Part shown: positions 11,675 through 56,752 of the stretch, piece after piece
Position numbering within the stretch: the first letter of the stretch is position 1
Layout: the number at the start of each line of letters is the position of its first letter
Origin: Rhizophagus irregularis
Lineage: Eukaryota
DNA length: 64,000 bases
Direction of reading: 5' to 3'
Assembly (NCBI RefSeq): GCF_026210795.1
Contig: NC_089432.1
Location: forward strand, 3,968,001-4,032,000
Position numbers and translations under genes: made by a program
The notes under the pieces: model-generated
The model's input: the letters and a program-made list of their open reading frames with translations, nothing else
The model's database searches: none
What the model was told of the DNA's origin: nothing

Positions 11675-11723
11675 AGTGGGATACCACATGCAATATAAAT
11701 TATATTGCATGTGGTATCCCACT
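11675..11723. repeat. Left terminal 49-bp palindrome (hairpin)
   Basis: AGTGGGATACCACATGCAATATAA-A-TTATATTGCATGTGGTATCCCACT, perfect 24-bp arms. Confidence 0.95.
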
Positions 11724-11739
11724 TATCCTAGATTATAGT

Positions 11740-11928
11740 ATCACATGTAATCTAAATACCACATATAATCTAAATACCGCATATGATCTAATTAACACAT
11801 ATAATCTGAATACCTCATATGATCTAAATATCACATATAATCTGAATACCACATATGATCTAAATAATGTAATCTAATTACCACATATGATCTAAATGAT
11901 GTGGTCTAAATACTACATATAATCTAAC
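11740..11928 (+). repeat. Subterminal tandem array of ~18-bp units (consensus ACCACATATAATCTAAAT)
   Basis: About 10 imperfect copies read directly; more copies ~12019-12066; mirrored at ~56360-56690. Confidence 0.9.
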
Positions 11929-14385
11929 ATTTTATTATTTCTTATATCGCTTTTACATTCTAGCTATATCTTTAAGCCTTTCTTGATATTTGTATTTTTG
12001 TGCTAATATACTTTTTATTACCACAATATAATCTAATTACCACACACATATAATCTAAATACCACGCTATTCTTCTTGTTTCTAAGTCATTTATTTGTTA
12101 AATTATACAATGGAGTTCTTGACCTTCTGTAGTTATTTGGATACCTGGTTTATATCGAGTACTGTGCCTCCTGCACCTGATTGGGTGCTGGATTTTATAT
12201 TGGAGTACTTACCTTTGCGCCTATTTGGTTGCCTTTCTAGATGTTGAAAAAAAGTGACGGGTGGCGCAGTAAATTTGCATTTAATTTCGGCTGACACTAT
12301 GCTATAATTCCGGCTGATCTTTTGGGCATGTGATTTGAGGATCCAGCCTGGCGCCATGGAACTATCGTGGAACTGGCAGGGAACTGTCATGGAACTGGTG
12401 AAGAACTGGCAGGAAGCTAGAGTGGTTCTATTAATTCACCAGTTTCAGATCACTTATATTGCCAGCTTGGATGCCAAGTTCTTATGCCCAAAGATCTGGT
12501 CAAAATTGTGAAATAGTGTTGGCCGAAATTAAGCGAATCTATACTGCGCCTTACTGCGCCATAGTCACGTGATACTGTTCCGGTGACAGAACACCCTCAC
12601 ATAGTTACGGGCTAGTGACGGGGATGTTCTGGGAAAGTTTCTGGAACCCAATATATATGCATCTGTGCCACATATTTTTTGTATCCATATATTTCCGAAA
12701 TCTTCCTAACACTCTCGAGCTCCAGTCTGGTGGACAGTTGGTTAGTAGAGAATTGGAGGTACAATATGTATTATCTTGGCCTGACCCATTTGATTACCAA
12801 AAAGTGCGCCATCATGCAACCTAATTATTGTCAGTACATGTATGCCTATTTCATGTCCAAAGTTGAAGATGCGATATGTATTATTGTGGCTGGCCCATCT
12901 ATACCATACCCGAATACATATCTAGAAAGATGAAGGCTTCTGCCAATATTTATATAATAGATTACGCAGTTACCTTCACTTTTAGATGTATATCCACTTG
13001 CCTTTCTTTTTCGATTCTTTATCTAAGTTTGCTATCGCTTCTTTTTTTCGCGTATTTGTCTATCCTAGATGTCATATATGTCCGAGCACATACTAGTGTT
13101 AGGGTAGCCTTCTGCCAATATTTTATATAATGATTACGCAGAAGGCTACCCTATAAAGAATGTATTTATTTGTGTCTCCGAAGTGTCCAAGAGGGGCCAG
13201 CCAACTTCGTATCTCTTTTTGGTATACCTCTATATTACGCGGAGGCTATACCATATCTGAGTACATATCTAGGAAGATGGGGGCTTCTTCCAATATTTTA
13301 TATAATAATTCCGAAGTTATCCCATCTAAAAGTATATACCCGTTTCCCTTTTATTTACGATTTGCTTACTGGGTTGCTATACGCCTCTTTTTACATCCTA
13401 TTAACAATGCTAAGGTGAAGGCTTCTGCCAATTTTTATATAATAGATTACGCAGAAGCCTTCACTTTTAGATATATATCCGGTTGCCTTTCTTTTTCGAT
13501 TCGTTTAATAAGTTCACTATCGTTTCTTTTTGCATCCACCGAAAAAAATAAATTAAACATTTCCGAATTTTATAAAGTAATATAAACATTTTCGAACTAA
13601 CACCATGCATACACCAACTAGTTTCGACCAAACCGATCACTCTGGCCCTCTCGTTTACTTCAACGGCGCCAGTCCCGATGAATATTTAAGTGATTCAAGC
13701 AGTTGTACTGATAATAAATCCGACTTGGGGTCAGATGATTATAATGACAATGAGTCTAATTATGAGTCGAATAATGAAGAAGCTACCGGTACCTCAACCG
13801 ACATTACCACGACTCCATCATTTCAGTACTCTTTAAGGCAGGAAAAGTTTAATGATAAATTTTCTTCTAAGGATTTGCTAAATGCCATTCGGAGGATTTT
13901 CTCATCACCACCTAGAGATATGTCAGATGAAAAAGGCTCATTGGAAGATCTCCCAATCTATTCATTCCTCTTTCCGAATGAAAAAGGGTCTAGTTTATAT
14001 AACGCTTACGATCGGGGTGAAGTGGAAAATAAATTGGTTATCAAAATCGACCAAGATGGTGATCATGCCCCCAAATTTTCCGTTGCAGATGACATTTCAG
14101 AAGTATATGGTTTACCCGGGATTCATGAATGTATTAATAGACAAAAGCCTTTAAGAGCTGTGATTGATATCGATGCGTCGCAAAAAGATATGGAAACAGC
14201 TGATGTCAAGGGGCAAGAAGTGTTCATTCGAATCTGTTGCTCTTTCATAAGAGCTTTGTACCGAATTCTTGACTGTGGTTGGGAAGACATTCTCAAAGGG
14301 TTAATAGTTACTACATCATCAGATTCTAGCAAATGTAGTTATCATATCTTATATGCACCGGCTCTCCTTATCGATCACCAAGAGC

Positions 14386-17300
14386 TAAAGCTCCGCATGA
14401 GCCAGCTTGAGCCGAGCTAAGGTCTGGCTTGGGCTTGGCTCGAAAAAATGTACTGAGCCAAGCCGAGCCGAGCCACAAATTCTTATGGCTCAGCTCAATA
14501 TGAGCCGAGCTATAATAATTCTTAGCTCGAAACAAATGAGCTGAGCCGAGCTTCAATAAATTTTGGCTCGAGCCAAGCTGAGCTCGAGCTACTATTTGTT
14601 TATAATTTGTATTTATAATTGACATAATTATGTTATTTATGTAGAATATTTTTTATTTATTTTTTATTTATTTATTTATTCAATTTTTATTTATTTAATT
14701 TAAAATCTAATTTAATTAATAAATTATAATTACCGGCACACATTTTTTCAACATTTATTTGTTAATTTCACTTCCGTCTGACCCTTTCCGTTATTCAGAC
14801 TACTATTATGAGCAATTATCAAGTCTACTATTTTACTTTATCATTAAGTTTTACCCTCCAACCTTTCATACATAATTACCGCTTCAGAATGTCCAACAAG
14901 CAACCGAAACCTAGTTATCCCGGGTTCATCTAAAGAGTCCGGCAACCTAAAGAAAATAGTAGAAACGTTAGTACTTTTCTTCTATATATTAAAAAAAAAT
15001 TACTCCCCAATTCCCGCTAACATATACTTGCACACATTCCAAATCCGGACCTTCCAAATCTAAAAAAAAGAATCAAAATGTTAGTAACGTTTCGTTAAAT
15101 TATAAGAAAAAAATTATTTCGATTACCTTCAAACATTAGAAGCCGGTCCGTCCCTACAAAAAAAGAAAGGTAAAGAACGTTAATAACGTTCTTGTAGTTC
15201 TTGTATTGAAAAACCCTCCCTTTCCTCACATTACCTCAAGAAGCTGTGTGCCGAAAGATTCGTTCCTACTTCCTACAAAAAAGAAAAGAACAGAACGTTA
15301 GTTAACGTTCTTATATTAAAAGAATTATTAATATAATATCTCCCCCTGTAACTTACCATTTTATGGAATTCCAAGTCCAGGAAAAAAATAAAAATAAAAT
15401 AAAAAATTTAACGGTATAATAAGATTGTTTGAACGAAAAAAAAATTTTTTTAAAAAAAAAATAAAAATGAATAACGGTTTAAAATAAAGAAACCGTTTAA
15501 CGAAAAAGGAAAAAAAATAAACCCGTTTTTTTTTAATAATAAACCTAAAAAATATACAAAGCGCTACAAATTTAATGTATAAAGTTGAAGGAAGGAAAAA
15601 AAAATTAAGATTATCGATCGGTAAATCGGATCGATAAGTCACATGTAAAGATGTACCGTAATATTAATTTTGACTGTGAAACTGAAAAGTAACTGTGCTA
15701 AACTAATTTTGGTAGCTAAACTAATTTTAGCTAAGCCAATTTTATTAATTTTCCGTGTCTTAATTATTTAAAAGTAGTTATCGTCTGTATGGAAAAAAAA
15801 AATTCGAGTTGATAATTTCAGTTATCATCCATGCAAAATAATCCAACTTAAGTCATTCTTTTACGGGTTCTTTTTTGACGGCTTTCTCTTAAGATAAAAA
15901 GATTTATATATCCGAATAATGTCCAACCCTTCTTCACCTATTCCCGTTCCCACTCCTATTGTTGAACTTGAAGCGAATACTAATTCTTCTTCAAGCAGCA
16001 AAAGATCCCTTGTTTATCAATTTTTTACTTATAAGTCTCCAAAATATTATTGCAACTATTGTCCTAAGAGTTTTTCAAACAAATCAACTTCTACGTTATG
16101 GCGTCATGTAAATAAACACCACCCAAAAATTGTTGCTGAAACTCAAAAACAAGAGGAAAAAATCGGTGAAATGGATAAGTTCGTAATTTCTGATCAAAAA
16201 GAAAATGTAAGTTTAATATTTATTTTAATACCATATTAAAGATCCTTATTATTAATATATCAATATAATTATATCATTTTTTTAGTTTAGCCAAAAAGGA
16301 TATAGAAAAAGATTGATTCGTTGGGTAGTTAATAATGATCAACCGTTTAATGTGACCGAAAATAGGGAATTTCGGGACATGATGACATTTATTCGACCAG
16401 GTATGCACATTCCCTCTGCTGATACTATACGACGAGATTTAACTGAAAACTTTAAAACTTCAAAAGATGTATTTAGACAACAACTGCAGGTTAATAACTA
16501 ATGTTTATATGTAATGATTTTATATTATATGGGTATTAAATCAATCCAAATAAAAACAATAGGAAGCACCCGGTCGCCTATCTTTCACAGTGGATGCTTG
16601 GACCAGCAAGAATCAAATTCCATTTCTTGGGATAAGTGTTCACTGGATAAATGACAAATGGGAATTAAAATGTACTACATTGGATTTTTGTATTTTATCA
16701 GGATCCCATACTGGAGCTAATTTATCACAAAGATTTTTAGAAGTCCTTCAAGAGTTTGGTATAACAACAAAAGTAAATGTTTAATTGTTTATTTACAATT
16801 TATATTTTTTTTCATAATTAACTAATAATTGTTTATTCTTTATTGTATATAGATTTTAGCAATTGGATGTGATAATGCTTCCAACATGGACGTGATGCTA
16901 GAAAACATTTCGCAGTCTTTAAAATTACAAAATATAATATTTGATCCAAATAATCATCGCGTCCGATGCCTTGCACATGTTATAAATTTAGGCGCAAAAA
17001 AATTAATAGATCATCTTTATGTGACTAATAAAATATCATATGAAGATGAAAATACCTTTGAAGTATCCGAAGATAATGATGATAATTTGAAAGATGCTAT
17101 ATATAAGGTAATAAATATTATTGCAAAAATACCAATTTTATAATTGCTAATTGTTTAATTTATTAAATTTAAAGCTTCGCAAGGTTATAGTAAAAATTAG
17201 AGCATCTCCACAGCGCCGAGAAAAACTTAAGCAACAATGTATTGCTGCTAATATTAAACCACTTGAACTTATCCCGGATGTGTCAACGCGATGGAATTCG

Positions 17301-18880
17301 ACTGATGACATGATAACACGTGCATTGGAATTAAAACAAGTAATATTAGTTTTATTATTTAAATTTTTTTAAAAAATTATTAAATTTCTAATTAATAATT
17401 AATTATACAGCCTCTTCATAATACCGCATCAGCTGATAAAGATTTAAGAAAGTATATACTTTCAGAAGAGGAATGGAATTGTATTTTAGAAGTACATGAG
17501 ATATTGCAGGTTAGTTATTTATTGATTAATAATATACACGAAAAATAATAAAAAAAATATTTTCAAGAAATTAAATCTTTTTTTATCTTTTTATTTACAG
17601 TGTTTTAAAAAGAGTACTAATTTTAGCACTGGACAGCAATATCCAACGTTATCGTATAGTGTTCCTATATACAACTATTTGCTAGATAAGCTTGAAGACG
17701 AGTATGAAAAAAAGGAAAGTGAAAAAGGCGAAGAGAATGAAGTTGTAGTAGCATTAAATGAATCAATCGAAAAAATAAAACAATATTATGCATTTACAGG
17801 TGCATTAGTTTATACAGTAGCAACAGGCAAGTTTATCATTATCATTATGTCTAATTTTATGATATTTAAATATTAAATTTATTTCTTATAATTTATTACT
17901 AAATAGTGATGGATCCTCGCCTTAAACTTCAATATTATAGGGATAATAAATGGGAGGAATCCTTTATTCAAGAAGCCAAAAAACAAGTTGTTGAATTATG
18001 GAAGTCAACGTATAAAGTAAATAGTGCAGATAATGAAGAATCACATGATGATGATGATGAAATTTTCGGTCATATATTTAAGAAACGGAAATTAAATAAT
18101 GATGAATTAAGTATATACTTAGATGAAAAAATAATTCCCGGAAAAACAGATATTCTTGCATGGTGGAAGGTATATAAATAATATTATTTATTATATTATT
18201 ATTTTATATTATTAATGTTATTAAATTAATTTTTATAGGCGCACGAAGTGGAGTACCCGAATTTGTCTAAAATGGCGCGTGATTACTTATCTATTCCAGG
18301 TTAATATATATATATATATCAAAATAGTAAATTACCGATCAATAAACTATTATTAATTATTTTATTTATATAATTTATTATTTTTATAGCCACTAGTGCA
18401 CCTGTAGAGCGAATTTTCTCAGGTGGCACCGATTTAGTTGTTCAAAAACGTTGTAGTCTTAAAGATGAATCAATTCAAAAAGTAATGTGTCTTAAAGGAT
18501 GGTGGAAATCGGGTTTTGGTGGAATAACTATTGTAAATGATTAATATAAAAGTAAAATTATATCTATTGTTAGTTTGATTATTAAATGTTAAATTTTAAA
18601 TAATAAATAATAAAATAATAAAATAAACAATATTTTATATCAAATTTTAGTAATTTAAAATCGAGCCAGCTCGAGCTATTTAAGCCAAGCTTATTATTGG
18701 CTCGAGCTTTTTTGAACTGATTTATTACCGGCTTGAGCTTTTTGAGCTGAGCCTATTACCGGCTTGAGCTCTTTTCAAGCTGGCTCGTGAGCTACGAGCC
18801 AATTTAATTATGGCTCAGTTCGGCTCAGCTTGAAAAGCTTGAGCCAGCTCACAAGCCAGCTCGGCTCATGCGGAGCTTTA
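14386..18880 (+). mobile_element. hAT DNA transposon nested in the primase-helicase gene
   Basis: TIRs TAAAGCTCCGCATGAGCC / GGCTCATGCGGAGCTTTA; 8-bp TSD CCAAGAGC (14378-14385, 18881-18888); subterminal GAGCC/GAGCT repeats. Confidence 0.95.
15919..18544 (+). CDS. Multi-exon hAT transposase with BED zinc finger
   Basis: CNYC..LWRHVNKHH, DAWTS, CDNASN, RCLAHVINL, DVSTRWNST, DPRLK, WWK..YPNLSKMARDYLSIP, ATSAPVERIFS; GT-AG introns between ORF pieces. Confidence 0.9.
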
Positions 18881-21800
18881 CCAAGAGCTTAAATCATTCA
18901 CCGAATTAGTATATACCTTAACTGGGGAAAAATTTGGCAAGTTTATTGATCAGAATCTATCTGGTCATAATTTTAACCTTCGCCTTATTGGTTCGGCAAA
19001 AAAAGGTCACGTGAAACGAATTCTTCAGTTTTCACTAGATAATGGGTGGAATGAACTCGATCACGTTAGAGTCCAACCACCTACTAACTTAGGCCTCGAA
19101 GTAAGACCCCGGCTACTTAGTGAAGAAAAAAATAACAACCCACTAAGGATAATTGTAAGTCAGGATGTATTACAAAAATGCGCGAACTTAGTTTTGCAAA
19201 AGCATTTTAACTATCTTAGGAATTGGACTATCGAAGAAAAGGATTCACAATACTTCGTATATTTTAACCGGAAAGCTTCACTAGAATGTCCACTATGTAA
19301 ACATATACATGACAAGGATCAGCGGTGGTTCGGACATGTATCTGCTAGTGGTACATTTATTGTGAAATGTTTTCGGCAAAATAGTGATGAACCTGGGGAA
19401 GTTTTTGAATGCGACCCATCTATTGCGGAAAAAATTCAGCAAAAAAATAAAAATATATCTTCGGCGCCTAGCAAGATAAAAGGCTTAGGTTTTCCTAAAG
19501 CCTTCTTAAAATTCCCATCTTGGGTTAAGTATAATGAGCCCCTTTCAGCGACAGAAATATATGACGAGAGATATGTAAGACCATTACCGGATGAAGGTGA
19601 TATCTATGTAGGATCGCCTTGGGAGACGGGAAAAACATATGTTCTCGAGCATCTTACTATATCTGACGATGTGAATTTGCTAGTATTATCTACGCGCCAC
19701 TCTTACTCGAATGCCGTCACTACAAGACTCAATCTCAAATCATATTGCGATATCGATAGTAATATAAATCTACCTGATCATAAGAGGGTAGTATGTCAGA
19801 TAGAAAGTTTACACCGTATTACTAATAATTGCAAATGTAATAAAAAATGTAAATGTTCTCCAAGCCAATATGATTTATGGCTTGATGAAATAGTATCTAT
19901 AATTGCTCAGGCACAAGGTCATTTGGCGGGTCAATCAATAGAGAAACTATATAAATTAATCCAAGAGGCTAGGCGTATTATCGTCATGGATAATGATCTT
20001 ACTGATCTAAATATCGAATGGATTAAGGCCCTTCGCAAGGATAAACTATTCTCAGTTATCCACAATACTTATCAACCACAGGAAGGGAAAACATTCCGCC
20101 TAGCCTCTAATAAAGAAACTGTGTTAGCCGAACTTTGGGATTGGGCTAGGAGAATATCTTCACTACCTTCTGATAAACGAACAAGTGCATCACTCATCTG
20201 TCATCTCAGAAAGGATGTGCAAGGGATCGTTCGTGCTCTCAAGACCGATTTTCCGGAATTGAGGATCAAAGAATATCATGGTAAATCTGATCCAGAAGAA
20301 AAGGCTAACGACTTCAGTAACGTAGAAGAATCATGGAGCAATGTTGATCTAGGTGCGTATACAAGTACTTTAAAAATAGGAGTATCTTGCACTAATCCCA
20401 AGTTCGAACGGGCGTTCTGCATCTTTAACAGTTATATAGAAACGAACGCTGGAACGAATCAGATGCTATTCCACATGCGGTGCATTAAAGATTATATATG
20501 CCATATCGAACAAAGATCTTCTAACGTCCCCATTACAGAAGATGGGTTATTTCGATGGTTGTTGAATGCTAAACGTGAATGCCTCCCCCGAGAACTCCAG
20601 AATAGAGGAATATTCCCAGATGTAGATTCTATTATCCGGAATAAGGACGTACCAACTGTTCGATTATGGGTGGCATTCATGTTGGAAAAATTCCGTTCCC
20701 GAAGATTATTTGGTTGGAGGATGGTTGATTTTCTCCGAAATGCAGGTATGGTAATTTCTATCATAGAACTTATGCCTAAACCTAAAGATAATACGATATC
20801 ATTATCCCAGACAGTAAGGGTGAGTTCATCTATCATTAAAGCAGAAGAAATCTCAGATATATCAAATGCCCGTATTCTTGATCATGAGATAGCTGAGGTT
20901 TTGGAAAATAAGCCGAAGAAGACTTTAGAGGAAATGCAATCTTTAGACCGGCATCATATTGTAGAATGTTATGAGATTCCGCCTGAATCATTGACCGAAG
21001 AATTCATATCGAAGTATGGGAATTATAATCATATGAAATGGTTTAGAGCTTATAGACAGTTACGGGACGCTGGCACTGATAATGAAACGGCTGTTGAGGC
21101 TATTACCCGTAAAGATTACAGAGAGGATAGACTCGCAACCGTGACCCGAGCTGAGAGACATAGTATCTGCTTGGAGTTGCTAAGAAATTGTACACCCGCT
21201 AAAGACGTTGACGATAGAGCACGATATAAAGCTGATGATGTTAGAACGCGCATGAACTCTCCTAAATCGATATTATATCTCCAGGATTTAGTACCCAAAA
21301 TGGCTCGAGTATTTGATAATACAGATGCATCGCGCAGAGCTAAAAAATCGGGATTGAAAACAGATCGGGCAAAACTTGGTTTATTAAATGCATCACTTTA
21401 CGCAACTTATGGATTAAAATTTAAGGCTATAGATAAGAATTGTAGACATTACCACCTAGTAGGTTCATTTGATAGTAAAGATGCTCCTAGATTACCTTCA
21501 TATCAAACGGGCGAAGAAATTTATTGGGTAAATGGTGAAGATACTCGGTATGGGTATAGTAAACTCCCACCCGATGAATTGATATTAGATAATTTTACTA
21601 GCTCTAGCAAAGTGGATAATACGCAAAATACAGAAGATATTCAGGACTTATTTGATATATGCTAATACCATTCGATTACGTATCAGGTAAGTGAAGGCTT
21701 CTGCCATTTTTATATAATATAATTCCGCAGAAGCCTTCATTTTTCGGCATATATTATTAAAAAAATATCTCTAACTTTGCGTCACTCTGGCCAGGATATA

Positions 21801-22465: not shown

Positions 22466-22969
22466 ATGGACATATCAGGCCAATTGACAGAATACGAGCC
22501 CGCTCACGAAAAAATCTATAACCCCAAATCTAATCGCATGATAGTTATAAATGGGCCAGTGTATCGTAAATTATTATGTGGTGGTTATATCCATTGGAGA
22601 GAAGAAAGGCTTTTGATTCCGCCTTTACATGAATTACCAATATTAAGAAGATATCTTTCTTTCATTTCATATCGTATCTGGAACATTGTATCGGAAAGAA
22701 GTTTACTAGCAGTGGTTAACGAAAAAATAAGCCTATTGCAGATTTTACTCAAAGCTAATTGGCATGATTTTACTTTATGTCAACTATTAAAATTATGCTG
22801 GGAGCGTGAAGAGACGAAAGCTTGGAGGAGTAATGTACTCATGAAATTCCTCCATCATCTGAATTTAGCTCCTTTAAAGTATAGACCGGGAGCTTTATGC
22901 GATGCATTTATCAAGACAGATGTTTTAGGGCCGGAACATATATTAACTCTAGCACGAACGTTTTACTAA
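22466..22969 (+). CDS. Hypothetical protein with an N-terminal NPxS/TxRxI..GxxYxxL motif (2-cysteine-adaptor-like, known from large DNA viruses)
   Basis: IYNPKSNRMIVINGPVYRKL; intronless 167-aa ORF. Confidence 0.5.
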   Translation: MDISGQLTEYEPAHEKIYNPKSNRMIVINGPVYRKLLCGGYIHWREERLLIPPLHELPILRRYLSFISYRIWNIVSERSLLAVVNEKISLLQILLKANWHDFTLCQLLKLCWEREETKAWRSNVLMKFLHHLNLAPLKYRPGALCDAFIKTDVLGPEHILTLARTFY

Positions 22970-23294
22970 ATATTACTATAACATTTTGGTCTTAGATCAT
23001 TCATAGCCTTGGAATGGGGGTTCCATGACTATGTATTTTTTTTCGCATATCCTATCTACCCGCAATTTTCAAATGTTTGCAGAGAAAACCCGGCCATAGT
23101 GGGTGGATTCACGTAGTGAACACTCAGCATAAGCTATATTATTATTTTTCGCTCCTCCAATCCTCCGATAGCTTTCACCGACCATGAGGTAGTGAAATGG
23201 GGGAATATTTTTTTCGAATTGAACTTTATCCCACTTAATATAATCTGAATACCACAGATTATCTAACTACTACATATAATCTACATACCACATA

Positions 23295-25437: not shown

Positions 25438-25474
25438 GGCTAATTAGCTATCCGATAAATGCCAGTCCAGAGCG

Positions 25475-25975
25475 ATGATAGAGGTTTATTTTTTATATTT
25501 GGATATTATATATGCCATAATAAAAATGGTATTCGTGAATTGTGTAGTCGAAGAAAATATTCCTATTGAGGCATCAATTGATACGAGCGCCAATGTAAAT
25601 TGCATTAGCCAAAAACATATTGGTGAATTAGGAATTACATATCACAGTGAAAGCAATCGTATTGAGACTCCGGATGCATCCTATTCTACATTAGGAAAGG
25701 TTGATCTGCATATCGGCTTTAATGATAGCAAGAAACATAAAAGCACACCCGTTGAATTCATAGTTCTTGGACTGGAGTGGTCGGGACCTGATTTAATTTT
25801 AGGAGGACCTTGGTTTCAAGAAAATGGTGCAACTTTGGATATATGCAACTCAAATCTATTATTTGACAATAATTTTGCGATCCCATTCAAAGAAGTAGAC
25901 TATATTTCGACATTATCTGATAGTCAAATCCGAGCTATGACGGATTTTCCCAGTCCAACCTATAGTCCGGAGTGA
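25475..25975 (+). CDS. Retropepsin-like aspartyl protease (second copy; likely start at MVFVN)
   Basis: ASIDTSANVNCIS and DLILGGPWF motifs. Confidence 0.75.
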   Translation: MIEVYFLYLDIIYAIIKMVFVNCVVEENIPIEASIDTSANVNCISQKHIGELGITYHSESNRIETPDASYSTLGKVDLHIGFNDSKKHKSTPVEFIVLGLEWSGPDLILGGPWFQENGATLDICNSNLLFDNNFAIPFKEVDYISTLSDSQIRAMTDFPSPTYSPE

Positions 25976-26463: not shown

Positions 26464-26510
26464 GCTTAGAGAATTTATTTTTTCGATTAAAGATACAGCA
26501 TATATTATTC

Positions 26511-29347: not shown

Positions 29348-29591
29348 TAATTATTTTTATATCATGTAATGCGATCCATTCGCAATTTTTATGTATTGTA
29401 GGCCGGGTTCCGGCAACATTTTATTTCATAAATAAAGTATTATTATATGAGTAAGCGGGTCACGTGTATGTCTGTACTACATAAAAACCTATATTAACAC
29501 TTACGTTCCCACCAGAAATACAACTCTATTTTTTCTCCGAACGTAACACTATTTTTATCCGAGCCAATTATCCCTATAAAAACGTAACGCT

Positions 29592-39621: not shown

Positions 39622-41122
<1,501 letters not shown>

Positions 41123-41146: not shown

Positions 41147-42817
<1,671 letters not shown>

Positions 42818-45337: not shown

Positions 45338-45566
45338 AGAAAGGACATAGTCCTATTACCTCCTCACAGAAGAAGAAATCAAAAACTCGCAAGTCTCGTA
45401 AGGTAAAAGATGCGGAAACAACCGGTCCCTTTGGGATCCCCCTTTAGCAGATCCTTCTGGGATCGCATCAGTTCCTATTTTCAAGAAGGAAAAGCAAAGT
45501 TCAAAGTCCCCACCACAGGACGAACAATCCCGCTTAGAAAAAATCATTGAGAAAATTATTGAGAAG

Positions 45567-46208
45567 GTGCTTAATGAAAAGTTTGGTACTATCACGGCCC
45601 TCCTTCACTCACAGAACGATAATTCTAAAACACTGGCCGATTCTGAAGAGGATGAATTCATTGATGTTCCTATGGAGATAGATTTTGTACAGAGAAAAGA
45701 TCCCGCCACAGATGTTGCCACTGTTAAATGTAGAATTAAGCGTCTAGTGATTCCGGCAGGTACAGTTGATCCTGGTGCTAATTTTCCAATCATGTCTGAG
45801 GATATAGCCAAACGATCAAAGCTAGAAATTGATACAAAAGAAAAACATGATCTCAGAGGCATTGCTACTACTCCTACAGAGTCGCTTGGAATTGTTAGGA
45901 ATGTTCCAGTAAATTTCGCTCCTAGATGTACTATATACGCCGATTTTGCAGTCGTCAAGTATCCTAAGCTGATGCTTATTTTACCCAACACATTGCTTGA
46001 TAAATATAACTATGATTTACTTGCATCGAAGCGAGAATTAAGACTAGAATGTAATGGCAAGGAATTTTTTATCCCAATTAATATGCATAAGGTCAAGAAC
46101 AAGCTTGAGGTGAATTGTGCGACCACTATTCCCGAATGTGATGATTCCTCGACCCCAGACAAAATTTCGCAGGACTTAATCGAAGATGGTACATTTAAAA
46201 AAAAGTGA
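45567..46208 (+). CDS. Retropepsin-like aspartyl protease downstream of Gag
   Basis: GTVDPGANFPIMS, LRGIA...SLG, DFAVV...LILPNTLL. Confidence 0.75.
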   Translation: MLNEKFGTITALLHSQNDNSKTLADSEEDEFIDVPMEIDFVQRKDPATDVATVKCRIKRLVIPAGTVDPGANFPIMSEDIAKRSKLEIDTKEKHDLRGIATTPTESLGIVRNVPVNFAPRCTIYADFAVVKYPKLMLILPNTLLDKYNYDLLASKRELRLECNGKEFFIPINMHKVKNKLEVNCATTIPECDDSSTPDKISQDLIEDGTFKKK

Positions 46209-46940: not shown

Positions 46941-47999
46941 ATGACCAATGTATATACTTTGAAAGATATCAATAATAAAAGTGATTGTTCCTTTAGAGGG
47001 GTCGGTCAACGACTTGGTGGTGCAAATGAGCAAGAGATTAAAGAAAAATTATATTCTGCTCTTAAATCTAAAGCTGAAATTAATGATCTCAGCGAAAAGC
47101 TGGTAGATAAGTACAATGAGCGAGAAAAGGAGTTTGAAAATAAAGCTAGCCAGTTAATTGCATCCACTACTAAAGTTAGATCCCAACTTATTTCTGAACG
47201 AAAGTCTCATACTGAGAGTCAACGTGAGCTTGAAGCCAAATATACTGCCGAAATCCAATCGCTCAAATCTAAGATTAAAACACTGAAAAGAGAGGGGACT
47301 TTAGCCCGGAAAGCTTCGTCCGCCGACAAGACCAAGATTCTTTCTCTTGAAATTAAAGTACGTGAATTGGAAGGTAAGTTGGATGACTTGGAACTAGAAC
47401 AGGTGCTCCATGATTCGAATGCAGTGGGAGGGATGATAGAGGATCCAGCCCAATCTGATCGTAAAGAGATCGATTCTCTCAGGCTTGAATTGAAACGAGT
47501 GAAGGAGGACCTTAATTCGAAAGAATGTACAATAGAATGTATGGAAAAAGGGATAGAAGCGACACATGAGATAACCAGTTGGGAAATAGATGCTTTGTAT
47601 TCGGCACAATCAAAATTAATGGAGAAAAATAGGTCTCTCAGGGACCAGTTAGAATTGGAAAAAAATAATAAAGTAGATCCTCAACCCCTGCCTATGAATG
47701 ATTCATCGCATCTTGGTCCTGAAGCGACCCCTTCCACTCTTAATCCTTCTCAAATAATTTCTGTAGGTGGCGCAGAAGCGGTGCCTTTACTAACAACTGC
47801 TCCTATCGTCACGAGCTCCTCGATCCCGCCTATGTTAATATATTCTATACTTACCCTAGTACTTATTACGATTATATGCTTCATGGCTAGGAAATGGTGG
47901 AATTCGCGGAAGAAAGACGACCGACCAGGTATGATTTTTTCGGGACAGGCCATCTCGGAAATAATACCTAATCGACTACCGTATAAGTACTGGCGCTAG
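46941..47999 (+). CDS. Coiled-coil protein with Pro/Ser/Thr stalk and a C-terminal transmembrane helix
   Basis: MLIYSILTLVLITIICFMA followed by RKWW. Confidence 0.7.
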   Translation: MTNVYTLKDINNKSDCSFRGVGQRLGGANEQEIKEKLYSALKSKAEINDLSEKLVDKYNEREKEFENKASQLIASTTKVRSQLISERKSHTESQRELEAKYTAEIQSLKSKIKTLKREGTLARKASSADKTKILSLEIKVRELEGKLDDLELEQVLHDSNAVGGMIEDPAQSDRKEIDSLRLELKRVKEDLNSKECTIECMEKGIEATHEITSWEIDALYSAQSKLMEKNRSLRDQLELEKNNKVDPQPLPMNDSSHLGPEATPSTLNPSQIISVGGAEAVPLLTTAPIVTSSSIPPMLIYSILTLVLITIICFMARKWWNSRKKDDRPGMIFSGQAISEIIPNRLPYKYWR

Positions 48000-48652: not shown

Positions 48653-51600
48653 TTATCTTTTTTTGTCATCCTGTAACTTTGATAACGTTCGATAGCGTGT
48701 GATTTCTAGACCAACCACTTTGTACCATGTGTTTCGGAAACCTGCTAGTAGCTTACACTCATCCAAATAATATGATGTTAAATATTGTTCTAAGGACATT
48801 GCTCGCTTCTTAGTAACTAATTTATACATACTTTCTCTATACCCTATATCAACCTCGGAAATTTCTTTAAGCAATGATGAAAGTTTTAAGCGGATAGATT
48901 CTTCTTGCTTATCTAGCACATTGAGGAAGGATTGGTAATAATCATTGTTAGTCAGGTGTTCTCCCTTGTCGGCATAAGTAGTATCAAATAATTTTTTCGC
49001 GTAAATGCGTGCCCCTTCCCATAAATGAGAAATGATGGTTTTATCTTTTTTCGGACCATCACGTAGGTTTTTGATATACCCCCTAATCCATTTTTCAGCC
49101 GATTTCTGCGCTAAGGTATCTCTTATTTTTGATACCTCATCCCCATCCATTTCGTCTTCTTCCTCTTCATCTTCGTCCAGGTCGTCTTCATCCACTCTAC
49201 TGTCATCCGCTTTATTTTCACCCACTTTATTACCATCTTTTAACTTTTTTAAGGCTTCCAGCACAATTTCAGATGATGGCTGGTGTCTATCATCATAGTT
49301 TATAAATCGCGCACAGAGCCCGACAACACTTTTCAGATAATAGTTAATATCGATCTTTTTATCAAGATGTCTTGCCACTTCTGGGTACTCCATTTTGTCA
49401 CCTACCTTCTGTGATGAATCATTCTCAACTACAACATATTCAAACCGCTCGCCTGGCTCTGGGATTTCATAAAGATAAGCCTTGGGTGTTAGACCCTTTT
49501 TTATGAGCCGTTTGGCGTCCGCTTCTTCACGGGTATGTCTATCCCGCATTCGTGAAATGAAGCGCTGTACACTCTTGTTATTTTTATCGGGCCTCCACAC
49601 AGCAGTTTTTATTATTTCATTAAGATTTGTCTGCGAAATATCCTTTACAGTCTCTTTGAGCACGTCCTCTACAACCTGATGCAAGGTACGTGTATTGTTT
49701 ACCCTCGTAGACTCTTCCATAATACGTTTTCCTATTTTGCGGAAAATGCCAGACTGACCCCGTTTTACAGTCTCAATTCCCCGAATGAAAAGCTCTTTAT
49801 TAAAATTTGGCTCACTCTCATGTGGAATGCTGTAGTATTTTTTCTTTCCAGTAAATACTACCGGAAATAAAACTTCCTCATATGCCATTTTAAGATACGA
49901 CGATCCATTATCTTTTTTAAAAAAGTCATTAACTTCGTCGCGGAGTTTCTCCATCTCTTCCATAGAGATTTTTACCATTCTAGACCAATATTCTTCTTTC
50001 GAGATCCCACCATTACCGCTGTCATATGCCTCATCGCATTCTTGAAAGTACCTTTCTGGAGGAACTAGATACAATGAATCAGTATCACCATATTTTATCT
50101 GAAAATCCCTACTTTTAACGAAATTTGCGACAAGTTTGATATTTCTCTGTCCAGCTGATGTGATGCCCCCAGCCAGTGCTCGCAAGAAGAAGGGAGATTT
50201 ACTATCCCCAGCGGTGCCATAAAATGTATTCATGTACACCTTAAGAGCATTTTGTTTCGCATCTAAGCAAGAATAAACAAAACAAACTGAATCATATTCT
50301 GTCATGAATTCATGCTTTTCTTTATTAATAAAATGGTATAGATTTTTGTTAAGGCTGGCACGTTTTTTCTCCCCCGCTTTTGCTAAAATGTGCTCAATTG
50401 CTTCTGGTAGTGACAAATCTTTACCCATTAAACCTATTACCAGTTCCATATCTTCCTTTTTTTCTTTCACAGGGGCAAGGCGTTCCTTTATCTCATTCCG
50501 TTTGATAGATAAATATTCCAATATAGTAACGTAGAGACCCTTTTCTTCAGGAGTGTTATTATGCCTTATAGACCATGCGAGACAATCCTGATTATTGAAT
50601 TTAAAACTAATTTCGTGGAGTTTTTTACCACTTTGTTCAGCACGCTCTTAAGATAAAATGATTTTATCAGGCGAGAGGTTGTATGTCATGATAAGGCTTG
50701 GATATAAAGATCTGAAGTCTAAGCCAGTTACAGGACGTTTATTTTCGAGCCCCTTTATTGGTGGGAAGACGTAGGCACCCGGGAATGATTCTGTTTCCGT
50801 TCGTTCTGAAATTGTACTGGTTAAAATCCCTTCCCGCCATGCACTAGCACTTAAAAGATTGCTCACTTTCATTCCTATTGCAAAATAATGCGCATCAAAT
50901 AACGATATAAATGCTATGCTCGCAACCTCCCTGTACTCATTAATTACATTGTGCTTAATCATTAACCGCTGGCAACTAAGAGCGTCAATGATACAATATT
51001 CGGCTATTTCGCGCATTTGTTCAGCCGTTGTGGCATCAGCCTCTTTTAGTGCATTTCTGTAATACTTGAACATGCGGTTGAAAGGCATATCCAATTTACT
51101 TTCGAGCCCACATTCGTTTAGGTAGAATGCTAAACTACTCTTTTCGGCCTTAGAATAAAATTTCATAAAGCAAGGTCGGACATCGATAGCTACGCATCCT
51201 GGGATTTTGAGATGCTTTGAATGAAATGGTATATCATTAACCTTTATTGCGTTATATTGGTATTGCCATTTTGTAATTTTTTCGAGGCTTGAATACTTTA
51301 ATGACATTTGATTGAACACCCATTCGAGAACCCCTAATTTTTTCGCCTTCTCCACAATAAATCTCCAATCATATTGTGAATCATTAAAACCTATGTGTAT
51401 ATCTGGAGCTAAAAGCTTCCAACATAGTGCAAAAGCCTTTAGTAAATTAGTCTGGGATCCACATACGATTGTAATCCATCGCGGATCTGGCGCTGTTTCA
51501 ATATCGACAAGACAGATTTGTTTTAACGGTTCGGGATCATCTTTCCAATGAACTGTCATACAAATCATAAATACGTTAGATTCATCGCTCTGCGCAGTAG

Positions 51601-52410
51601 GGAATTTACCTAAACCAAGCGAACTATATGTCTCTATATCCCATGTGAGAACAAGAGTTCGATCCCGTGAAAGGGTCGAGGAGAATAATGGATTATTATA
51701 ATCGTCCTCACTTGTTGGATTGTAATTATTCACAGAAACTTGGAAGAGATAAGTACCCCTTGAATATATTCGTGGAAATAATTACTTAACGTTGCCCAAC
51801 TTGAAAGAGGTAATCTTTTTTCACGGGCTACTTTGCGGTAATAATATATTGGGGTTAGATCATCAGAAGCTGTACAGATACTGACTTCACGAACTGCCTT
51901 TAACATATTATACCGGTCAAATTGATTCCAAGTAATAACACGTATATATGATTTTTTCTCTGTATAATATCCTTGAAGTGGGAAAGCACTAATATTCTCG
52001 ATCCCAAATTTTGATGTACCTTTGAGAGTATTGGATAATATATTTACTAATCTGGTCTTAAACGTAGATAGGGACATCTCTTCAGGTACTTCGACATCAA
52101 AGAAAAGCTTAATGCCTGTAATTTTTACGACTGCTTTTTGTCCATTAATCAAAGTACCAGTAATACGCAAAATATAGGAGGAGACACCATTTACATATTC
52201 GGAGGTATCATCACTAACTTCAGTAGGCATGAAATGTATGGGTTGCTTGTCGGATAGGCTTTGTTGGAGTATAGCAGTCATCCCATTATCATATTCTGCT
52301 ACAATCTCATTACGTGATAGAACACCGGCTAAGGGGCCAGTGTCATCGTAGCGGAGGGCTGGGGCGGTTCCGGAGCGATCGGTTTGGTCGAAACTAGTTG
52401 GTGTATGCAT
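48653..52410 (-). pseudogene. polB: Family B DNA polymerase, RNA-primed type, asfarvirus/NCLDV-like (~1250 aa; one frameshift, one nonsense)
   Basis: ExoI WDIETYS, ExoII GFNDSQYDW, ExoIII YCIIDA, GLDFRSLYPSLIMTYNLSPD, KQNALKVYMNTFYG, YGDTDSL, KKKYY; frameshift in the G-run ~51757-51760; in-frame TAA at 50650-50648. Confidence 0.93.
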
Positions 52411-52879
52411 GGTGTTAGTTCGAAAATGTTTATATTACTTTATAAAATTCGGAAATGTTTAATTTATTTTTTTCGGTGGATGCAAAAAGAAATGATAGTG
52501 AACTTATTAAATGAATCGAAAAAGAAAGGCAACCGGATATATATCTAAAAGTGAAGGCTTCTGCGTAATCTATTATATAAAAATTGGCAGAAGCCTTCAC
52601 CTTAGCATTGTTAATAGGATGTAAAAAGAGGCGTATAGCAACCCAGTAAGCAAATCGTAAATAAAAGGGAAACGGGTATATACTTTTAGATGGGGGTAAC
52701 TTCGGAATTATTATATAAAATATTGGAAGAAGCCCCCATCTTCCTAGATATGTACTCAGATATGGTATAGCCTCCACGTAATATAGAGGTATACCAAAAA
52801 GAGATACGAAGTTGGCTGGCCCCTCTTGGACACTTCGGAGACACAAATAAATACATTCTTTATAGGGTAGCCTTCTGCG

Positions 52880-55283
52880 TAGGGTTGGTAAAATAACCGT
52901 TAGTTATGAATTTGGTTAATTAACCGGTTAATTAACGGTTAGTTAACGGTTAATTAACCCATAAATAACCTGTATATATAATTTTAAGGAAGTTAAAATA
53001 AATTTATAATTTATTAAATATTATAAAATTTTAATATATTTTATTTATTCTTCATCATCTAAATTAATAACATTTGCTTCAAATCCAAATATACTATCAT
53101 TATCAGAACTATTATTATTATCATCTTCTTTATTTTCATTATCAGAACTATTATTACTATCTTCTTCATTTTCATTAAAATTACTAATCTGTTTCTTTTT
53201 TTGTATTTTTACAAGTCTATTACACATTCGAAGATTTCCATAAATATAAACTAATTTTTTAACACGTTCATTTTTCAATCTATTTCGAATTTTATTATGA
53301 ATAAAACCAAAAGTAGAAAAATTTCTTTCTGCAGCTGCAGAAGATGTAGGAATTGAGAGAATTTTAATAGCCAGTTGTTGAAGTTTACTAGTTGGCCATG
53401 ATTGCCACCATAAAGATGAATTAAGAATATTAGCAGATTTCCAAATAATTTCATTATCATAAGGTGAATTTTTATTACGAAAATTTACCAATTCAGCAAA
53501 TAATTCTACTGCTTCTTCCTGATTAAATCTTTTATTTACAAATGTTGTAAATTCTACATAACCAATAGATTCAACTTCATCATTTTTACTTTTTTCCAAA
53601 AATTGTGGATCTAACATATAAGCTGTTATCATAATAGGATGATAAGTATATTCCCATCGCTTTGCAATAAGTTCTTGAAGTTTATCAGAAAAATTACAAT
53701 CTATTTGATTAATTTGATTCATTACTTCTTTGAAATATGAATAAACATTTGAAAGAATTGAAATATCTGATTCAAATAACTTTAATGCTGAAACCATTGG
53801 TTCCATAATTTTTGTTATTATATCTAAATCTTCCCAAAACTCATCTGATAAAATATGAGCTCTTAAAGTTAAATCCATATTTTGACGAATTCTTATATCC
53901 ATTAAAGCCTGTTCAAGTGCTGTTCTTGAATTTTGAAGTGATTGAAAACAAGCAAGATGTATTCCCCATCTTGTAAGTGCTGGTAAAACCAATGCAATTT
54001 CTTTAGAATAATTTTCTTTTTGAATACGTTTCAATTTAGCTGTTGCCTGTACATGTGCCTTAAAATAATTGACCAACTTTTTTGCATTTTCAACAACAGA
54101 TTTAATTTGATCAATCTTTAAAATATCACTAATTAAAAGATTCATTACATGAGAATTACATCCTAAACAAACAATACTTGGATAACTATCTTCAATAATT
54201 CGCCAAGCTGCTTTCATTACACTAGCTGTATCTGTAATAACTGCTAAAAATTTATTAATACCAACAATTTCCATTTGTTTAATAATTTCATCTGCAACCC
54301 ATTTAGCTGTATGAGATTCTTCACCAGAATAAATAGCATCAAAGAATAATGGTTTTGGAGTACAAATAACAAAATTTTGAACTGATTCTCGATTAATATT
54401 AGACCAACCATCTGAAACCATTGTAAGAGATTTAGCTTGTAAAATTTGTTCATTACATTCAGCTTTAACTTCATCAAAAACATCATCAAGTAATTCATCA
54501 GCAAGTTTTCTTCGATTAGGTAATTTGAATGCTGGACGTAATTGTTGAAAAAACTGAATAACATAATTATTTTCAAGAAAAGAAAAAGGAACTCCAGCAG
54601 CAAATAATGCTTGAGCTAGTAAAATTTCAAGAGTATCTTGTTCTTCTTCACTCATACGATCAACAAAATTCTCAATTGTTGTATTTTTTAAATGCTTTTT
54701 TGATGTTTTTACTGTAGGAATAAAAGTAGAAGTAGTAGCATCAGAAGTTTCTAATAGTTCAGGAATTTGTTGTTTCTTTGTTTTTGCACTTTCTGGAGCT
54801 CTAGGACAACTATCATTAAGATGAACTTGCATTCTTTTAGCTGTACCTTGTTCAAAAACTTTAGAACAATAATTACAACGTACAGAAGGATGTGTTTTTT
54901 TTTTTTTTCTTAGACCTACTACTTTCTTCATTACTTTCTGCTTCAGTAATTATTGTCCAATGTTTCCAAACAGTTCCCTTTTTTTTTACCATGATAATGA
55001 ACAATAAATTTGCAAAAAAAAGTGTTTTTTTAAAAAAAATTTATCTTAAAAAAAAGATCATGCAATATGTAGATCATAGATTTAATCAATATTTATATTA
55101 ATTAATATTTAATTGTGTAACAAAATAATGGATTATCATTTAATCACATGATTTAAATTCTGCATTTTGATTGGCTAATTATAAATAACGGTTAATTAAC
55201 CATTTTAAATCAATCATAACTAACAAAATTAACGGTTAATTAACCATGGTTAATTAACCGTGGTTAATTAACCCCCATCCCTA
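52880..55283 (-). mobile_element. hAT DNA transposon nested in the right TIR
   Basis: Ends TAGGGTTGG.. / ..CCATCCCTA; 8-bp TSD CTTCTGCG (52872-52879, 55284-55291); GGTTAATTAACC subterminal palindromes; empty site present in the left TIR at ~13137-13144. Confidence 0.95.
53045..54992 (-). CDS. Intronless hAT transposase (BED finger, DUF659-like core, dimerisation domain); frameshift in an A14 run near the 5' end
   Basis: MVKKKGTVWKHW.. then VRCNYC..MQVHL, SDGWSN, ITDTASVM, CNSHVMNL, TRW, LDP, PTSSAAAERNFS. Confidence 0.9.
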
Positions 55284-56703
55284 CTTCTGCGTAATCATTA
55301 TATAAAATATTGGCAGAAGGCTACCCTAACACTAGTATGTGCTCGGGCATATATGACATCTAGGATAGACAAATACGCGAAAAAAAGAAGCGATAGCAAA
55401 CTTAGATGGAGAATCGAAAAAGAAAGGCAAGTGGATATACATCTAAAAGTGAAGGTAACTGCGTAATCTATTATATAAATATTGGCAGAAGCCTTCATCT
55501 TTCTAGATATGTACTCGGGTATGGTATAGATGGGCCAGCCACAATAATACATATCGCATCTTCAACTTCGGACATGAAATAGGCATACATGTACTGACAA
55601 TAATTAGGTTGCATGATGGCGCACTTTTTGGTAATCAAATGGGTCAGGCCAAGATAATACATATTGTACCTCCAATTCTCTACTAACCAACTGTCCACCA
55701 GACTGGAGCTCGAGAGTGTTAGGAAGATTTCGGAAATATATGGATACAAAAAATATGTGGCACAGATGCATATATATTGGGTTCCAGAAACTTTCCCAGA
55801 ACATCCCCGTCACTAGCCCGTAACTATGTGAGGGTGTTCTGTCACCGGAACAGTATCACGTGACTATGGCGCAGTAAGGCGCAGTATAGATTCGCTTAAT
55901 TTCGGCCAACACTATTCCACAATTTTGACCAGATCTTTGGGCATGTAACTTGGCATCCAAGCTGGCAATATAAGTGATCTGAAACTGGTGAATTAATAGA
56001 ACCACTCTAGCTTCCTGCCAGTTCCTCACCAGTTCCATGACAGTTCCCTGCCAGTTCCACGATAGTTCCATGGCGCCAGGCTGGATCCTCAAATCACATG
56101 CCCAAAAGATCAGCCGGAATTATAGCATAGTGTCAGCCGAAATTAAATGCAAATTTACTGCGCCACCCGTCACTTTTTTTCAACATCTAGAAAGGCAACC
56201 AAATAGGCGCAAAGGTAAGTACTCCAATATAGAATCCAGCACCCAATCAGGCGCAGGAGGCACAGTACTCGATATAAACCAGGTATCCAAATAACTACAG
56301 AAGGTCAAGAACTCCATTGTATAATTTAACAAATAAATGACTTAGAAACAAGAAGAATAGCGTGGTATTTAGATTATATGTGTGTGGTAATTAGATTATA
56401 TTGTGGTAATAAAAAGTATATTAGCACAAAAATACGAATATCAAGAAAGGCTTAAAGATATAGCTAGAATGTAAAAGCGATATAAGAAATAATAAAATGT
56501 TAGATTATATGTAGTATTTAGACCACATCATTTAGATCATATGTGGTAATTAGATTACATTATTTAGATCATATGTGGTATTCAGATTATATGTGATATT
56601 TAGATCATATGAGGTATTCAGATTATATGTGTTAATTAGATCATATGCGGTATTTAGATTATATGTGGTATTTAGATTACATGTGATACTATAATCTAGG
56701 ATA

Positions 56704-56752
56704 AGTGGGATACCACATGCAATATAATTTATATTGCATGTGGTATCCCACT
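56704..56752. repeat. Right terminal 49-bp palindrome (hairpin)
   Basis: AGTGGGATACCACATGCAATATAA-T-TTATATTGCATGTGGTATCCCACT. Confidence 0.95.

What the first reader, a model, noticed from the sequence alone, without database searches (positions are those of the whole stretch)
11675..56752. A complete ~38-kb virus-like transposon that does not fit the Maverick/Polinton definition
Seen: 1.96-kb TIRs, AG..CT ends, 5-bp ATGTT TSD, and one compact gene set with rve integrase, A32 ATPase, family B polymerase, primase-UL9-like helicase, tyrosine recombinase-like protein, Gag and aspartyl protease. Known: Polintons have AG/CT ends, rve integrase and A32 ATPase, but use protein-primed PolB, jelly-roll capsids and an adenain protease. 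None of those three is recognisable here. Inference: a distinct class of integrating linear DNA element or virus combining a Polinton integration/packaging module, an NCLDV-type replisome and a retroelement-type structural module.
Basis: partly seen in the sequence, partly recalled or inferred. Interest (0 to 1): 0.97.

Follow-up and report, generated by a model that had tools for sequence, protein, structure and literature searches.

The report
Fungal transposon with giant-virus polymerase
This is a 38-kb jumping DNA element of mycorrhizal fungi that carries a polymerase related to that of African swine fever virus and a retrotransposon-type shell protein instead of the usual Polinton parts; it likely copies itself as a hairpin-ended linear DNA, and it likely explains the many 'giant-virus fossils' reported in these fungi.

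Summary
Window 11675-56752 has 1.97-kb TIRs (99% alike), AG..CT ends and a 5-bp duplication; an empty paralogous site holds one 5-mer. Without two hAT insertions it is 38,163 bp. The host is Rhizophagus. Gag-integrase-A32 order recurs in soil metagenome contigs, and PolB lies near A32 or the helicase in other Rhizophagus and Diversispora records, so it is a family. PolB is RNA-primed type and asfarvirus-like; no protein-primed PolB, jelly-roll capsid or adenain was found, so it fails the Polinton definition, although its integrase and ATPase are Polinton-like and libraries call such repeats 'Maverick'. New here: each end is a 49-bp palindrome, the 'tyrosine recombinase' is nearest to telomere resolvases by a language-model search (sequence profiles did not confirm this), and a piece of the end sequence sits directly upstream of that gene. 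Likely mechanism: hairpin-ended linear replication, then integrase insertion (inferred). This copy is dead (PolB, helicase, Gag broken). The family probably explains the 15-33 scattered asfarvirus-like polB copies per R. irregularis genome that were read as repeated infections. Not found described in nine literature searches.

The parts
11670..11674 (+). 5-bp target duplication, left (ATGTT)
   Evidence: empty paralogous site holds one 5-mer
11675..13642 (+). left TIR, 1,968 bp; runs into the first codons of the helicase gene
11675..11723 (.). terminal 49-bp palindrome (candidate telomere-resolution site)
   Evidence: hairpin z = -10
11744..12064 (+). subterminal 18-bp repeats, 9 matches per TIR
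12928..13466 (+). four spaced copies of an inverted repeat around an AT-rich core (candidate origin or promoter boxes; inferred); fifth copy at 21689-21742
   Evidence: families D3, D8
13605..14385 (+). primase-UL9-like helicase, N-terminal (primase) part
   Evidence: 84-89% to residues 1-263 of full-length relatives
14386..18880 (+). inserted hAT transposon (not part of the core)
   Evidence: a contig in run X16 skips it
18881..21665 (+). primase-UL9-like helicase, remainder
22466..22969 (+). conserved ORF; follows the helicase in Entrophospora and R. diaphanus gene models too
23227..23294 (+). internal copy of end sequence (11-mer of the palindrome arm plus two 18-bp repeats) directly upstream of the resolvase-like gene
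23295..24443 (+). tyrosine-recombinase-like protein, nearest to telomere resolvases (predicted); R227 K247 R317 H345 Y358 in catalytic order, by eye
   Evidence: for; not significant
25475..25975 (+). aspartyl protease-like ORF 1
   Evidence: Pfam RVP_2 E 0.003, below cut-off
26038..27593 (+). F-box + Gag-CTD-like ORF and F-box/LRR ORF
   Evidence: F-box/LRR fused to A32 in a Diversispora model
28859..39090 (+). cargo: two Crinkler N-terminal genes, restriction-endonuclease-like exons, two unknown ORFs (34849, 35815)
   Evidence: 34849 homologue beside A32 in L033
39622..40350 (+). conserved coiled-coil ORF, convergent with A32
   Evidence: 29 of 80 loci
40340..41098 (-). A32-like ATPase, intact
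41147..42748 (-). rve integrase with C-terminal zinc finger and endonuclease-like domain
42867..45337 (+). coiled-coil + retroelement CA-like Gag, split by a frameshift in this copy
   Evidence: one frame in L045, L048; Foldseek
45402..46208 (+). aspartyl protease-like ORF 2
   Evidence: Pfam Asp_protease E 0.004, below cut-off
46941..47999 (+). coiled-coil protein with C-terminal hydrophobic helix
47976..48329 (-). conserved small ORF behind PolB
   Evidence: same place in P0124, P0126 models
48653..52410 (-). asfarvirus-like RNA-primed family B polymerase, broken (one frameshift, one stop)
52374..56752 (-). right TIR, interrupted by hAT 52880-55283; terminal palindrome 56704-56752
56753..56757 (+). 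5-bp target duplication, right (ATGTT)

Best explanation
It is one dead copy of a Glomeromycota family of large TIR-bounded elements that insert with a 5-bp duplication and carry a Polinton-type integrase and ATPase, an asfarvirus-like RNA-primed polymerase, a primase-UL9 helicase and a Gag-like protein, and that likely replicate as hairpin-ended linear DNA made by a predicted telomere resolvase. Steps. (1) Shown: insertion by an rve integrase-type reaction into a host repeat. (2) Shown: each TIR runs into the start of one replication gene (helicase left, PolB right), so each end likely drives one of them (inferred). (3) Inferred, about 55%: the resolvase binds the subterminal repeats (and the copy in front of its own gene, i.e. 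autoregulation), cuts the 49-bp palindromes and seals hairpins, which frees a linear replicon and resolves replication dimers; this removes the need for a terminal protein and so fits the switch from protein-primed to RNA-primed PolB. (4) Inferred, about 85%: primase-helicase and PolB copy the DNA. (5) Inferred: integrase processes ends that carry the whole palindrome and inserts them. (6) Speculative, about 30%: Gag, matured by the aspartyl protease, forms a particle that the A32 ATPase fills. The family likely accounts for most scattered asfarvirus-like polB copies in R. irregularis (about 85%).
For: Ends, TSD, TIRs. Empty site: a contig of run X5 joins left-flank letters to the right flank with one 5-mer between; the two flanks continue one reading frame. 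Family: of the best 80 of 121 metagenome loci, 50 have the integrase upstream of A32, 29 the coiled-coil gene downstream, and all 8 that reach 1.9 kb upstream have Gag; third codon positions change most in A32 (0.21/0.12/0.42), Gag, integrase and coiled-coil gene. Linkage by record numbers on contigs of equal length: PolB-A32 5-6 apart in two R. irregularis records (PolB 73% to ours) and 7 gene numbers apart in Diversispora (PolB 39%); PolB-helicase 22 apart in 2 of 4 pairs examined. PolB: best PDB hit E 2.7e-103, next 7.5e-10; 43-45% to ASFV PolB; 13 of 13 named AMF PolBs on one branch (support 100) among giant-virus-like sequences; uninterrupted relatives exist. Helicase: UL9-like, CyRepA1 E 6.6e-44; ASFV F1055L has this architecture (PMC10653895, passage). 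Resolvase: Atlas hits 0.94, 18 of 30 hits carry PF16684, after its own Mucoromycota cluster of 110; R, H, Y fall in register in the one stretch that hhalign aligned; the arm 11-mer occurs 3 times in 64 kb, at both ends and at 23227 (chance 0.06), and 18 of 20 repeat matches lie in the TIRs, the other 2 before this gene; N15 has its 56-bp inverted repeat just upstream of telN and a Shewanella linear plasmid has resolvase beside CyRepA1. Gag: all listed Foldseek hits are retroelement capsids, PEG10 CA first (prob 1.00, TM 0.59-0.64 on target).
Against: Resolvase identity is not confirmed by alignment: no Pfam hit, none in PDB or phages, BLAST to TelN E 0.24, hhalign probability 0.25, 0.1 bit against a 12-sequence profile, within shuffles; its model was poor (pLDDT 38) and matched nothing; Atlas shared features 148-149 of 256 are under the 170 usual within a family. 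No homologue of it was seen beside the core genes at another locus. A related end in 3 of 4 runs stops matching at 56718 and has a different outer arm, so the perfect palindrome may not be family-wide. No second whole copy, TIR pair or TSD was seen; 2 of 4 PolB-region/helicase pairs were 42 and 362 records apart. Contig depths suggest only one copy of this subfamily in runs X5 and X14 (TIR about twice the junction). Gag Foldseek E-values are 0.17 or worse on a model of pLDDT 46. The PolB tree is unrooted and has no cellular outgroup. Unknown ORFs 27665, 34849, 35815 were not folded. No RNA or free-DNA evidence.
Confidence: 0.6

Rival explanations
1. Same family and same self-synthesis, but no hairpin stage: the recombinase-like protein excises or circularises the element (or is cargo), and the palindromes only serve integrase binding or 3' fold-back priming.
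For: All alignment tests for a resolvase failed; one Atlas set is Phage_integrase at 0.92; a related end lacks the same outer arm.
Against: 18 of 30 Atlas hits are resolvases against 1 integrase; end sequence before the gene; an RNA-primed PolB on a linear element needs an end solution (established knowledge).
Confidence: 0.18
2. It is the provirus of a small, still infectious fungal DNA virus with an unrecognised capsid; the copies come from repeated infection, as earlier papers read the polB copies.
For: A32 is intact and under purifying selection; a membrane-anchored coiled-coil ORF and unassigned ORFs exist; polB positions differ among strains (PMC10640383, passage).
Against: No capsid hit in any frame scanned; no MCP found in five R. 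irregularis genomes (PMC10640383); no relative in IMG/VR by A32, resolvase or PolB patterns (close relatives only); intron-bearing host cargo.
Confidence: 0.12
3. A decayed ordinary Polinton that lost pPolB and capsid genes and carries the asfarvirus-like genes as passengers.
For: Glomus/Rhizophagus A32 groups with Maverick-Polintons (bioRxiv 10.64898/2026.06.19.733378, passage); Glomus Polintons of 11-12 kb lack capsid and protease (PMC4028283 Table S1).
Against: PolB and helicase start inside the TIRs, form an AMF-wide branch from Paraglomus to Rhizophagus and Diversispora and stay linked to A32 at 39% identity.
Confidence: 0.07
4. A chance nest: Gag and protease belong to an inserted LTR retrotransposon, and the gene set is not one unit.
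For: Two true nested hATs are present; AMF genomes are repeat-rich.
Against: Gag lies head-to-head with the integrase in 8 of 8 long loci; no reverse transcriptase hit and no long direct repeat around it.
Confidence: 0.03

Closest known systems
Polinton/Maverick (Polintoviricetes), incl. Polinton-1_GI and P_Gi1.1/1.2 of Glomus intraradices
   Same: Long TIRs, AG..CT ends, 5-6 bp TSD (recalled), rve integrase, A32 ATPase, self-synthesis; AMF A32 groups with them; the Glomus elements also lack MCP, penton and protease.
   Different: RNA-primed asfarvirus-like PolB plus primase-UL9 helicase in place of pPolB; no jelly-roll capsid or adenain; Gag and aspartyl proteases; resolvase-like gene; 38 kb against 11-12 kb for the Glomus entries, whose sequence I could not compare.
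'Fundsbetavirus' / dispersed asfarvirus-like polB of R. irregularis (PMC7017919, PMC5294986, PMC10640383)
   Same: Very likely the same polB genes: asfarvirus-related, many copies, broken copies, positions differ among strains.
   Different: Those papers read them as remains of virus infections; in the passages seen none gives TIRs, TSD, integrase or an element. The 1.5-Mb GEVE with RNA polymerases is another thing.
Asfarviridae (ASFV)
   Same: PolB 43-45% identical over the catalytic parts; primase-UL9 fusion like F1055L; hairpin ends and 2-kb TIRs (recalled).
   Different: No RNA polymerase, capping enzyme, D5 or capsid hits; has an integrase; a fifth of the size.
Hairpin-telomere linear replicons (phage N15 TelN, Borrelia ResT, phaeovirus FirrV-1-B51 family)
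   Same: Palindrome of about 50 bp, resolvase-like gene with end sequence in front of it, UL9/CyRepA1-like helicase.
   Different: Those do not integrate by a DDE integrase; kinship of our protein is not shown by alignment.
Teratorn, casposons, Tlr1, Starships (recalled; not tested)
   Same: Large elements that fuse a replication module with an integration enzyme, or carry cargo.
   Different: Other enzymes: piggyBac + whole herpesvirus; Cas1 + pPolB; rve + pPolB-derived helicase + jelly roll; DUF3435 captain without polymerase.

Membership tests
Polinton/Maverick | rve (retroviral-like) integrase | tested here: met
   PF00665 above cut-off
Polinton/Maverick | long TIRs, AG..CT ends, short TSD | tested here: met
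   empty site
Polinton/Maverick | A32/FtsK-like ATPase | tested here: met
   PF04665; Polinton grouping from a paper, no tree of my own
Polinton/Maverick | protein-primed PolB | tested here: not met
   PF00136/PF03104, no DNA_pol_B_2 hit; best relatives asfarvirus-like
Polinton/Maverick | double jelly-roll MCP and penton | tested here: not met
   no profile hit; three unknown ORFs of 209-283 aa not folded, so a remote fold is not excluded
Polinton/Maverick | adenain-like cysteine protease | tested here: not met
   no hit; aspartyl proteases instead
Nucleocytoviricota / Asfarviridae | RNA-primed PolB of the lineage | tested here: met
Nucleocytoviricota / Asfarviridae | MCP, D5, VLTF3, RNA polymerase | tested here: not met
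   no Pfam hit
Telomere resolvase (PF16684) | R-K-R-H-Y catalytic set in the resolvase fold | tested here: inconclusive
   Atlas 0.94, order by eye; alignments and fold not significant
Telomere resolvase (PF16684) | palindromic target site | tested here: met
   49-bp palindrome at both ends
Telomere resolvase (PF16684) | hairpin formation activity | not testable with these tools
   needs an assay
LTR retrotransposon | Gag CA fold | tested here: met
   low-confidence model
LTR retrotransposon | reverse transcriptase, RNase H, LTRs | tested here: not met

The most novel reading that the evidence does not exclude
A new class of self-synthesising element: a hairpin-telomere linear replicon with an asfarvirus polymerase that integrates by a retroviral-type integrase and packs double-stranded DNA into a Gag shell with an A32 pump, i.e. 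a fungal DNA virus built across two virus realms; and the 'asfarvirus infections' of mycorrhizal fungi are its transposition. The hairpin part alone has about 0.55, the Gag particle about 0.3.
Probability: 0.25. Interest if true: 0.97.

Novelty: new variant of a known kind. Interest (0 to 1): 0.85.

Why it matters
It joins two separate lines in the literature: the 'Maverick' expansion in Glomerales and the scattered asfarvirus-like polB genes taken as proof of ongoing giant-virus infection of fungi. If both are one transposon family, polB-based counts of endogenous giant viruses in these fungi are inflated. It would be a Polinton-like element that changed its replication chemistry (RNA priming, probably hairpin ends), a step proposed for the origin of large DNA viruses, and it keeps a packaging ATPase without a jelly-roll capsid. 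It also moves Crinkler-type and F-box cargo in a key plant symbiont.

Tried and rejected
No genome was held, so copies could not be mined. Pattern scans found no relative in IMG/VR (A32, resolvase, PolB) or GTDB; these find close relatives only. Alignments A2 and A4 were too diverse for a scan. Resolvase: Pfam, NCBIfam, PHROGs, PDB, phage tblastn, BLAST, hhalign, hmmsearch, AlphaFold and Foldseek gave nothing significant. The helicase did not hit N15-type phages by tblastn (1 weak cyanophage hit, 4 CyRepA1 plasmid hits). Atlas for ORF 34849 gave only scores under 0.9. Gag and protease had no PDB sequence hit. Flip/flop isomers of the palindrome were not seen in the listed rows (660 rows hidden). 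Depth is no copy number: TIR contigs 174-250 against 18-20 for single-copy junctions in X1, but about twofold in X5 and X14. Run X7 covers the interior without the left hAT or right junction: a hint only. GBC22388/GBC22393 and POG74918 may be this very locus and were not counted. RNA holders were probably DNA or had a 0.06 share. Earlier findings: none. Kapitonov and Jurka 2006 was not held; Pritham 2007 not read.
Full report
1. Observation. The element runs from 11675 to 56752. Its TIRs are 1,968 bp; the right one is cut by a hAT, and the two pieces match the left at 99.1% over 1,470 bp and 98.8% over 509 bp. Both ends are flanked by ATGTT. Two hATs with their own 8-bp duplications lie inside; without them the element is 38,163 bp. 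The interior has 36% GC against 27% in the flanks. Pfam finds rve, Pox_A32, DNA_pol_B with its exonuclease, and Herpes_ori_bp; Gag and two aspartyl proteases are below cut-off. This copy is dead: PolB has a frameshift and a stop, Gag a frameshift, the helicase a hAT. Relatives with uninterrupted PolB (1,231-1,253 aa), helicase (1,183-1,194 aa) and Gag exist.

2. True insertion. A contig of run X5 carries left-flank letters, one 5-mer with two transitions, then the right flank: an empty copy of the host repeat. The flanks continue one reading frame across a single 5-mer. A contig of X16 skips the left hAT. No TSD of a second copy was seen; two contigs of X14 leave the end with unlike flanks, a weak hint.

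3. Host and family. Proteins 98-99% identical are named Rhizophagus irregularis. Helicase relatives are named from Rhizophagus, Glomus, Funneliformis, Diversispora, Gigaspora, Cetraspora, Entrophospora and Paraglomus (120 of 137 hits listed), wider than the Glomerales-only range reported for 'Maverick' (PMC11952901, passages). Of the best 80 of 121 metagenome loci (1-5 kb), 50 have the integrase upstream of A32, 29 the coiled-coil gene downstream, and all 8 that reach far enough have Gag head-to-head with the integrase; genes further downstream vary (L009, L033, L061). Third codon positions change most in all four genes tested (comparisons to one sequence, not independent). Record numbers on contigs of equal length put PolB 5-6 records from A32 in two R. 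irregularis records, 7 gene numbers from it in Diversispora, and 22 records from the helicase in two divergent copies; two further pairs were 42 and 362 apart. This is linkage read from numbering; I did not see that DNA. Fused gene models repeat the neighbours integrase-A32, PolB-ORF47979 and helicase-ORF22466.

4. Replication genes. PolB hits a 1,206-aa polymerase structure at E 2.7e-103 and the next at 7.5e-10 (that entry is ASFV by recall; the ASFV name is the source's). It is 43-45% identical to ASFV PolB over the catalytic parts. In a FastTree of 66 of the 120 listed long hits (16 labelled plus every second unnamed one), 13 of 13 named AMF PolBs and one unnamed form one branch with support 100, in two deep subgroups, among environmental sequences that include ASFV and the Elysia element; the tree is unrooted, without cellular outgroup. 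The helicase matches UL9 and CyRepA1; primase motifs are read by eye; ASFV F1055L is such a fusion (PMC10653895, one passage). Its nearest viral relative was not found. Both genes start with the same 11 residues inside the TIRs.

5. Ends and resolvase. Each end is a 49-bp palindrome, followed by 18-bp repeats. An 11-mer of the inner arm occurs only at the two ends and at 23227 (chance 0.06), and the only 2 of 20 repeat matches outside the TIRs lie at 23237 and 23273, just before the start codon at 23295. That ORF is nearest, after its own fungal cluster, to telomere resolvases in the ESM Atlas (18 of 30 hits, 0.94), and has R, K, R, H, Y in the order seen in alignment A2 (by eye). Every alignment or fold test failed to reach significance. 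A related end in three runs has another outer arm. So the link between this gene and the ends is shown in the DNA, and its enzyme identity is a prediction. Parallels: N15 has its palindrome upstream of telN; a Shewanella linear plasmid has resolvase beside CyRepA1.

6. Structural genes. No capsid, penton or adenain in 43 ORFs, 70 small frames, PHROGs or NCBIfam. The Gag core of L048, folded on five rows (pLDDT 46), is helical, and all listed Foldseek hits are retroelement capsids, PEG10 first, at E 0.17 or worse. No reverse transcriptase or LTR. A32 is intact and selected without a jelly-roll partner; a Gag particle is one reading, a role in DNA handling another.

7. Mechanism. Best reading: resolvase frees and seals a hairpin-ended linear DNA; primase-helicase and PolB copy it; resolvase splits dimers; integrase inserts ends that carry the whole palindrome, leaving 5 bp duplicated. 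Insertion and anatomy are shown; the rest is inferred. How the full palindrome is restored before insertion is unexplained (hairpin nicking and extension, or integrase cutting of a dimer junction).

8. Literature. PMC10640383 (passages): 15-33 asfarvirus-like polB copies per genome in five strains, positions vary, no MCP found, read as ongoing infection. PMC7017919 (results section): 'fundsbetavirus', no element described. PMC5294986 (passages): R. irregularis DNAP within Asfarviridae. bioRxiv 10.64898/2026.06.19.733378 (passages; supplements closed): Glomus and Rhizophagus A32 group with Maverick-Polintons, from fragmented assemblies. PMC4028283 (passages, Table S1 rows): three Glomus entries of 11-12 kb lack MCP, penton and protease, one has the ATPase. 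PMC11952901 and PMC8647823 (passages): Maverick as a library label, recently expanded. PMC11161782, PMC5751038, PMC3671162, PMC13465315 (term look-ups): nothing on this element. Nine searches showed no description of the whole element; subscription papers and Repbase are not covered, so an entry there is possible.

9. Verdict. It works like a Polinton but fails three defining tests (pPolB, jelly-roll capsid, adenain), so it is not filed as one. I rate it a new variant of self-synthesising transposon, interest 0.85; with hairpin replication or Gag packaging shown it would be a new class.

Noticed in passing
window 10104-10638: A small foldback element left of the main one: 183-bp arms 94% complementary, 15 bp apart, with 11-bp subrepeats; likely a MITE.
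   Followed up: no
window 9420-9725: Short ORF with a weak MrpR core-binding hit (E 9e-4), possibly a Crypton-type recombinase piece.
   Followed up: no
window 11300-11674 and 56753-57200: The element interrupts a spliced gene of a high-copy host repeat (contig depth 277-330 against 18-20 in run X1).
   Followed up: partly
window 41147-41650: The integrase ends in a zinc finger and an endonuclease-like domain (PHROG homing endonucleases, E 1e-14); relatives share this tail but are only about 50% alike in the catalytic part while neighbours are 86-95% alike, which points to two integrase types swapped among copies.
   Followed up: partly
window 28859-30892, 33022-33835, 38166-39090: Crinkler N-terminal genes and endonuclease-like exons ride as cargo; other loci carry other cargo (L009, L061).
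   Followed up: partly
window 26038-26463: A 141-aa ORF fuses an F-box to a piece like the Gag C-terminal domain.
   Followed up: no
window 21940-22110: Three 57-bp repeats in a short minus-strand ORF behind the helicase.
   Followed up: no
window 57629-58435: Two sets of three spaced direct repeats (66-67 and 74-75 bp periods) in the right flank.
   Followed up: no
P0180: An asfarvirus-like PolB is filed under a Patescibacteria MAG, likely a mis-binned viral contig.
   Followed up: no
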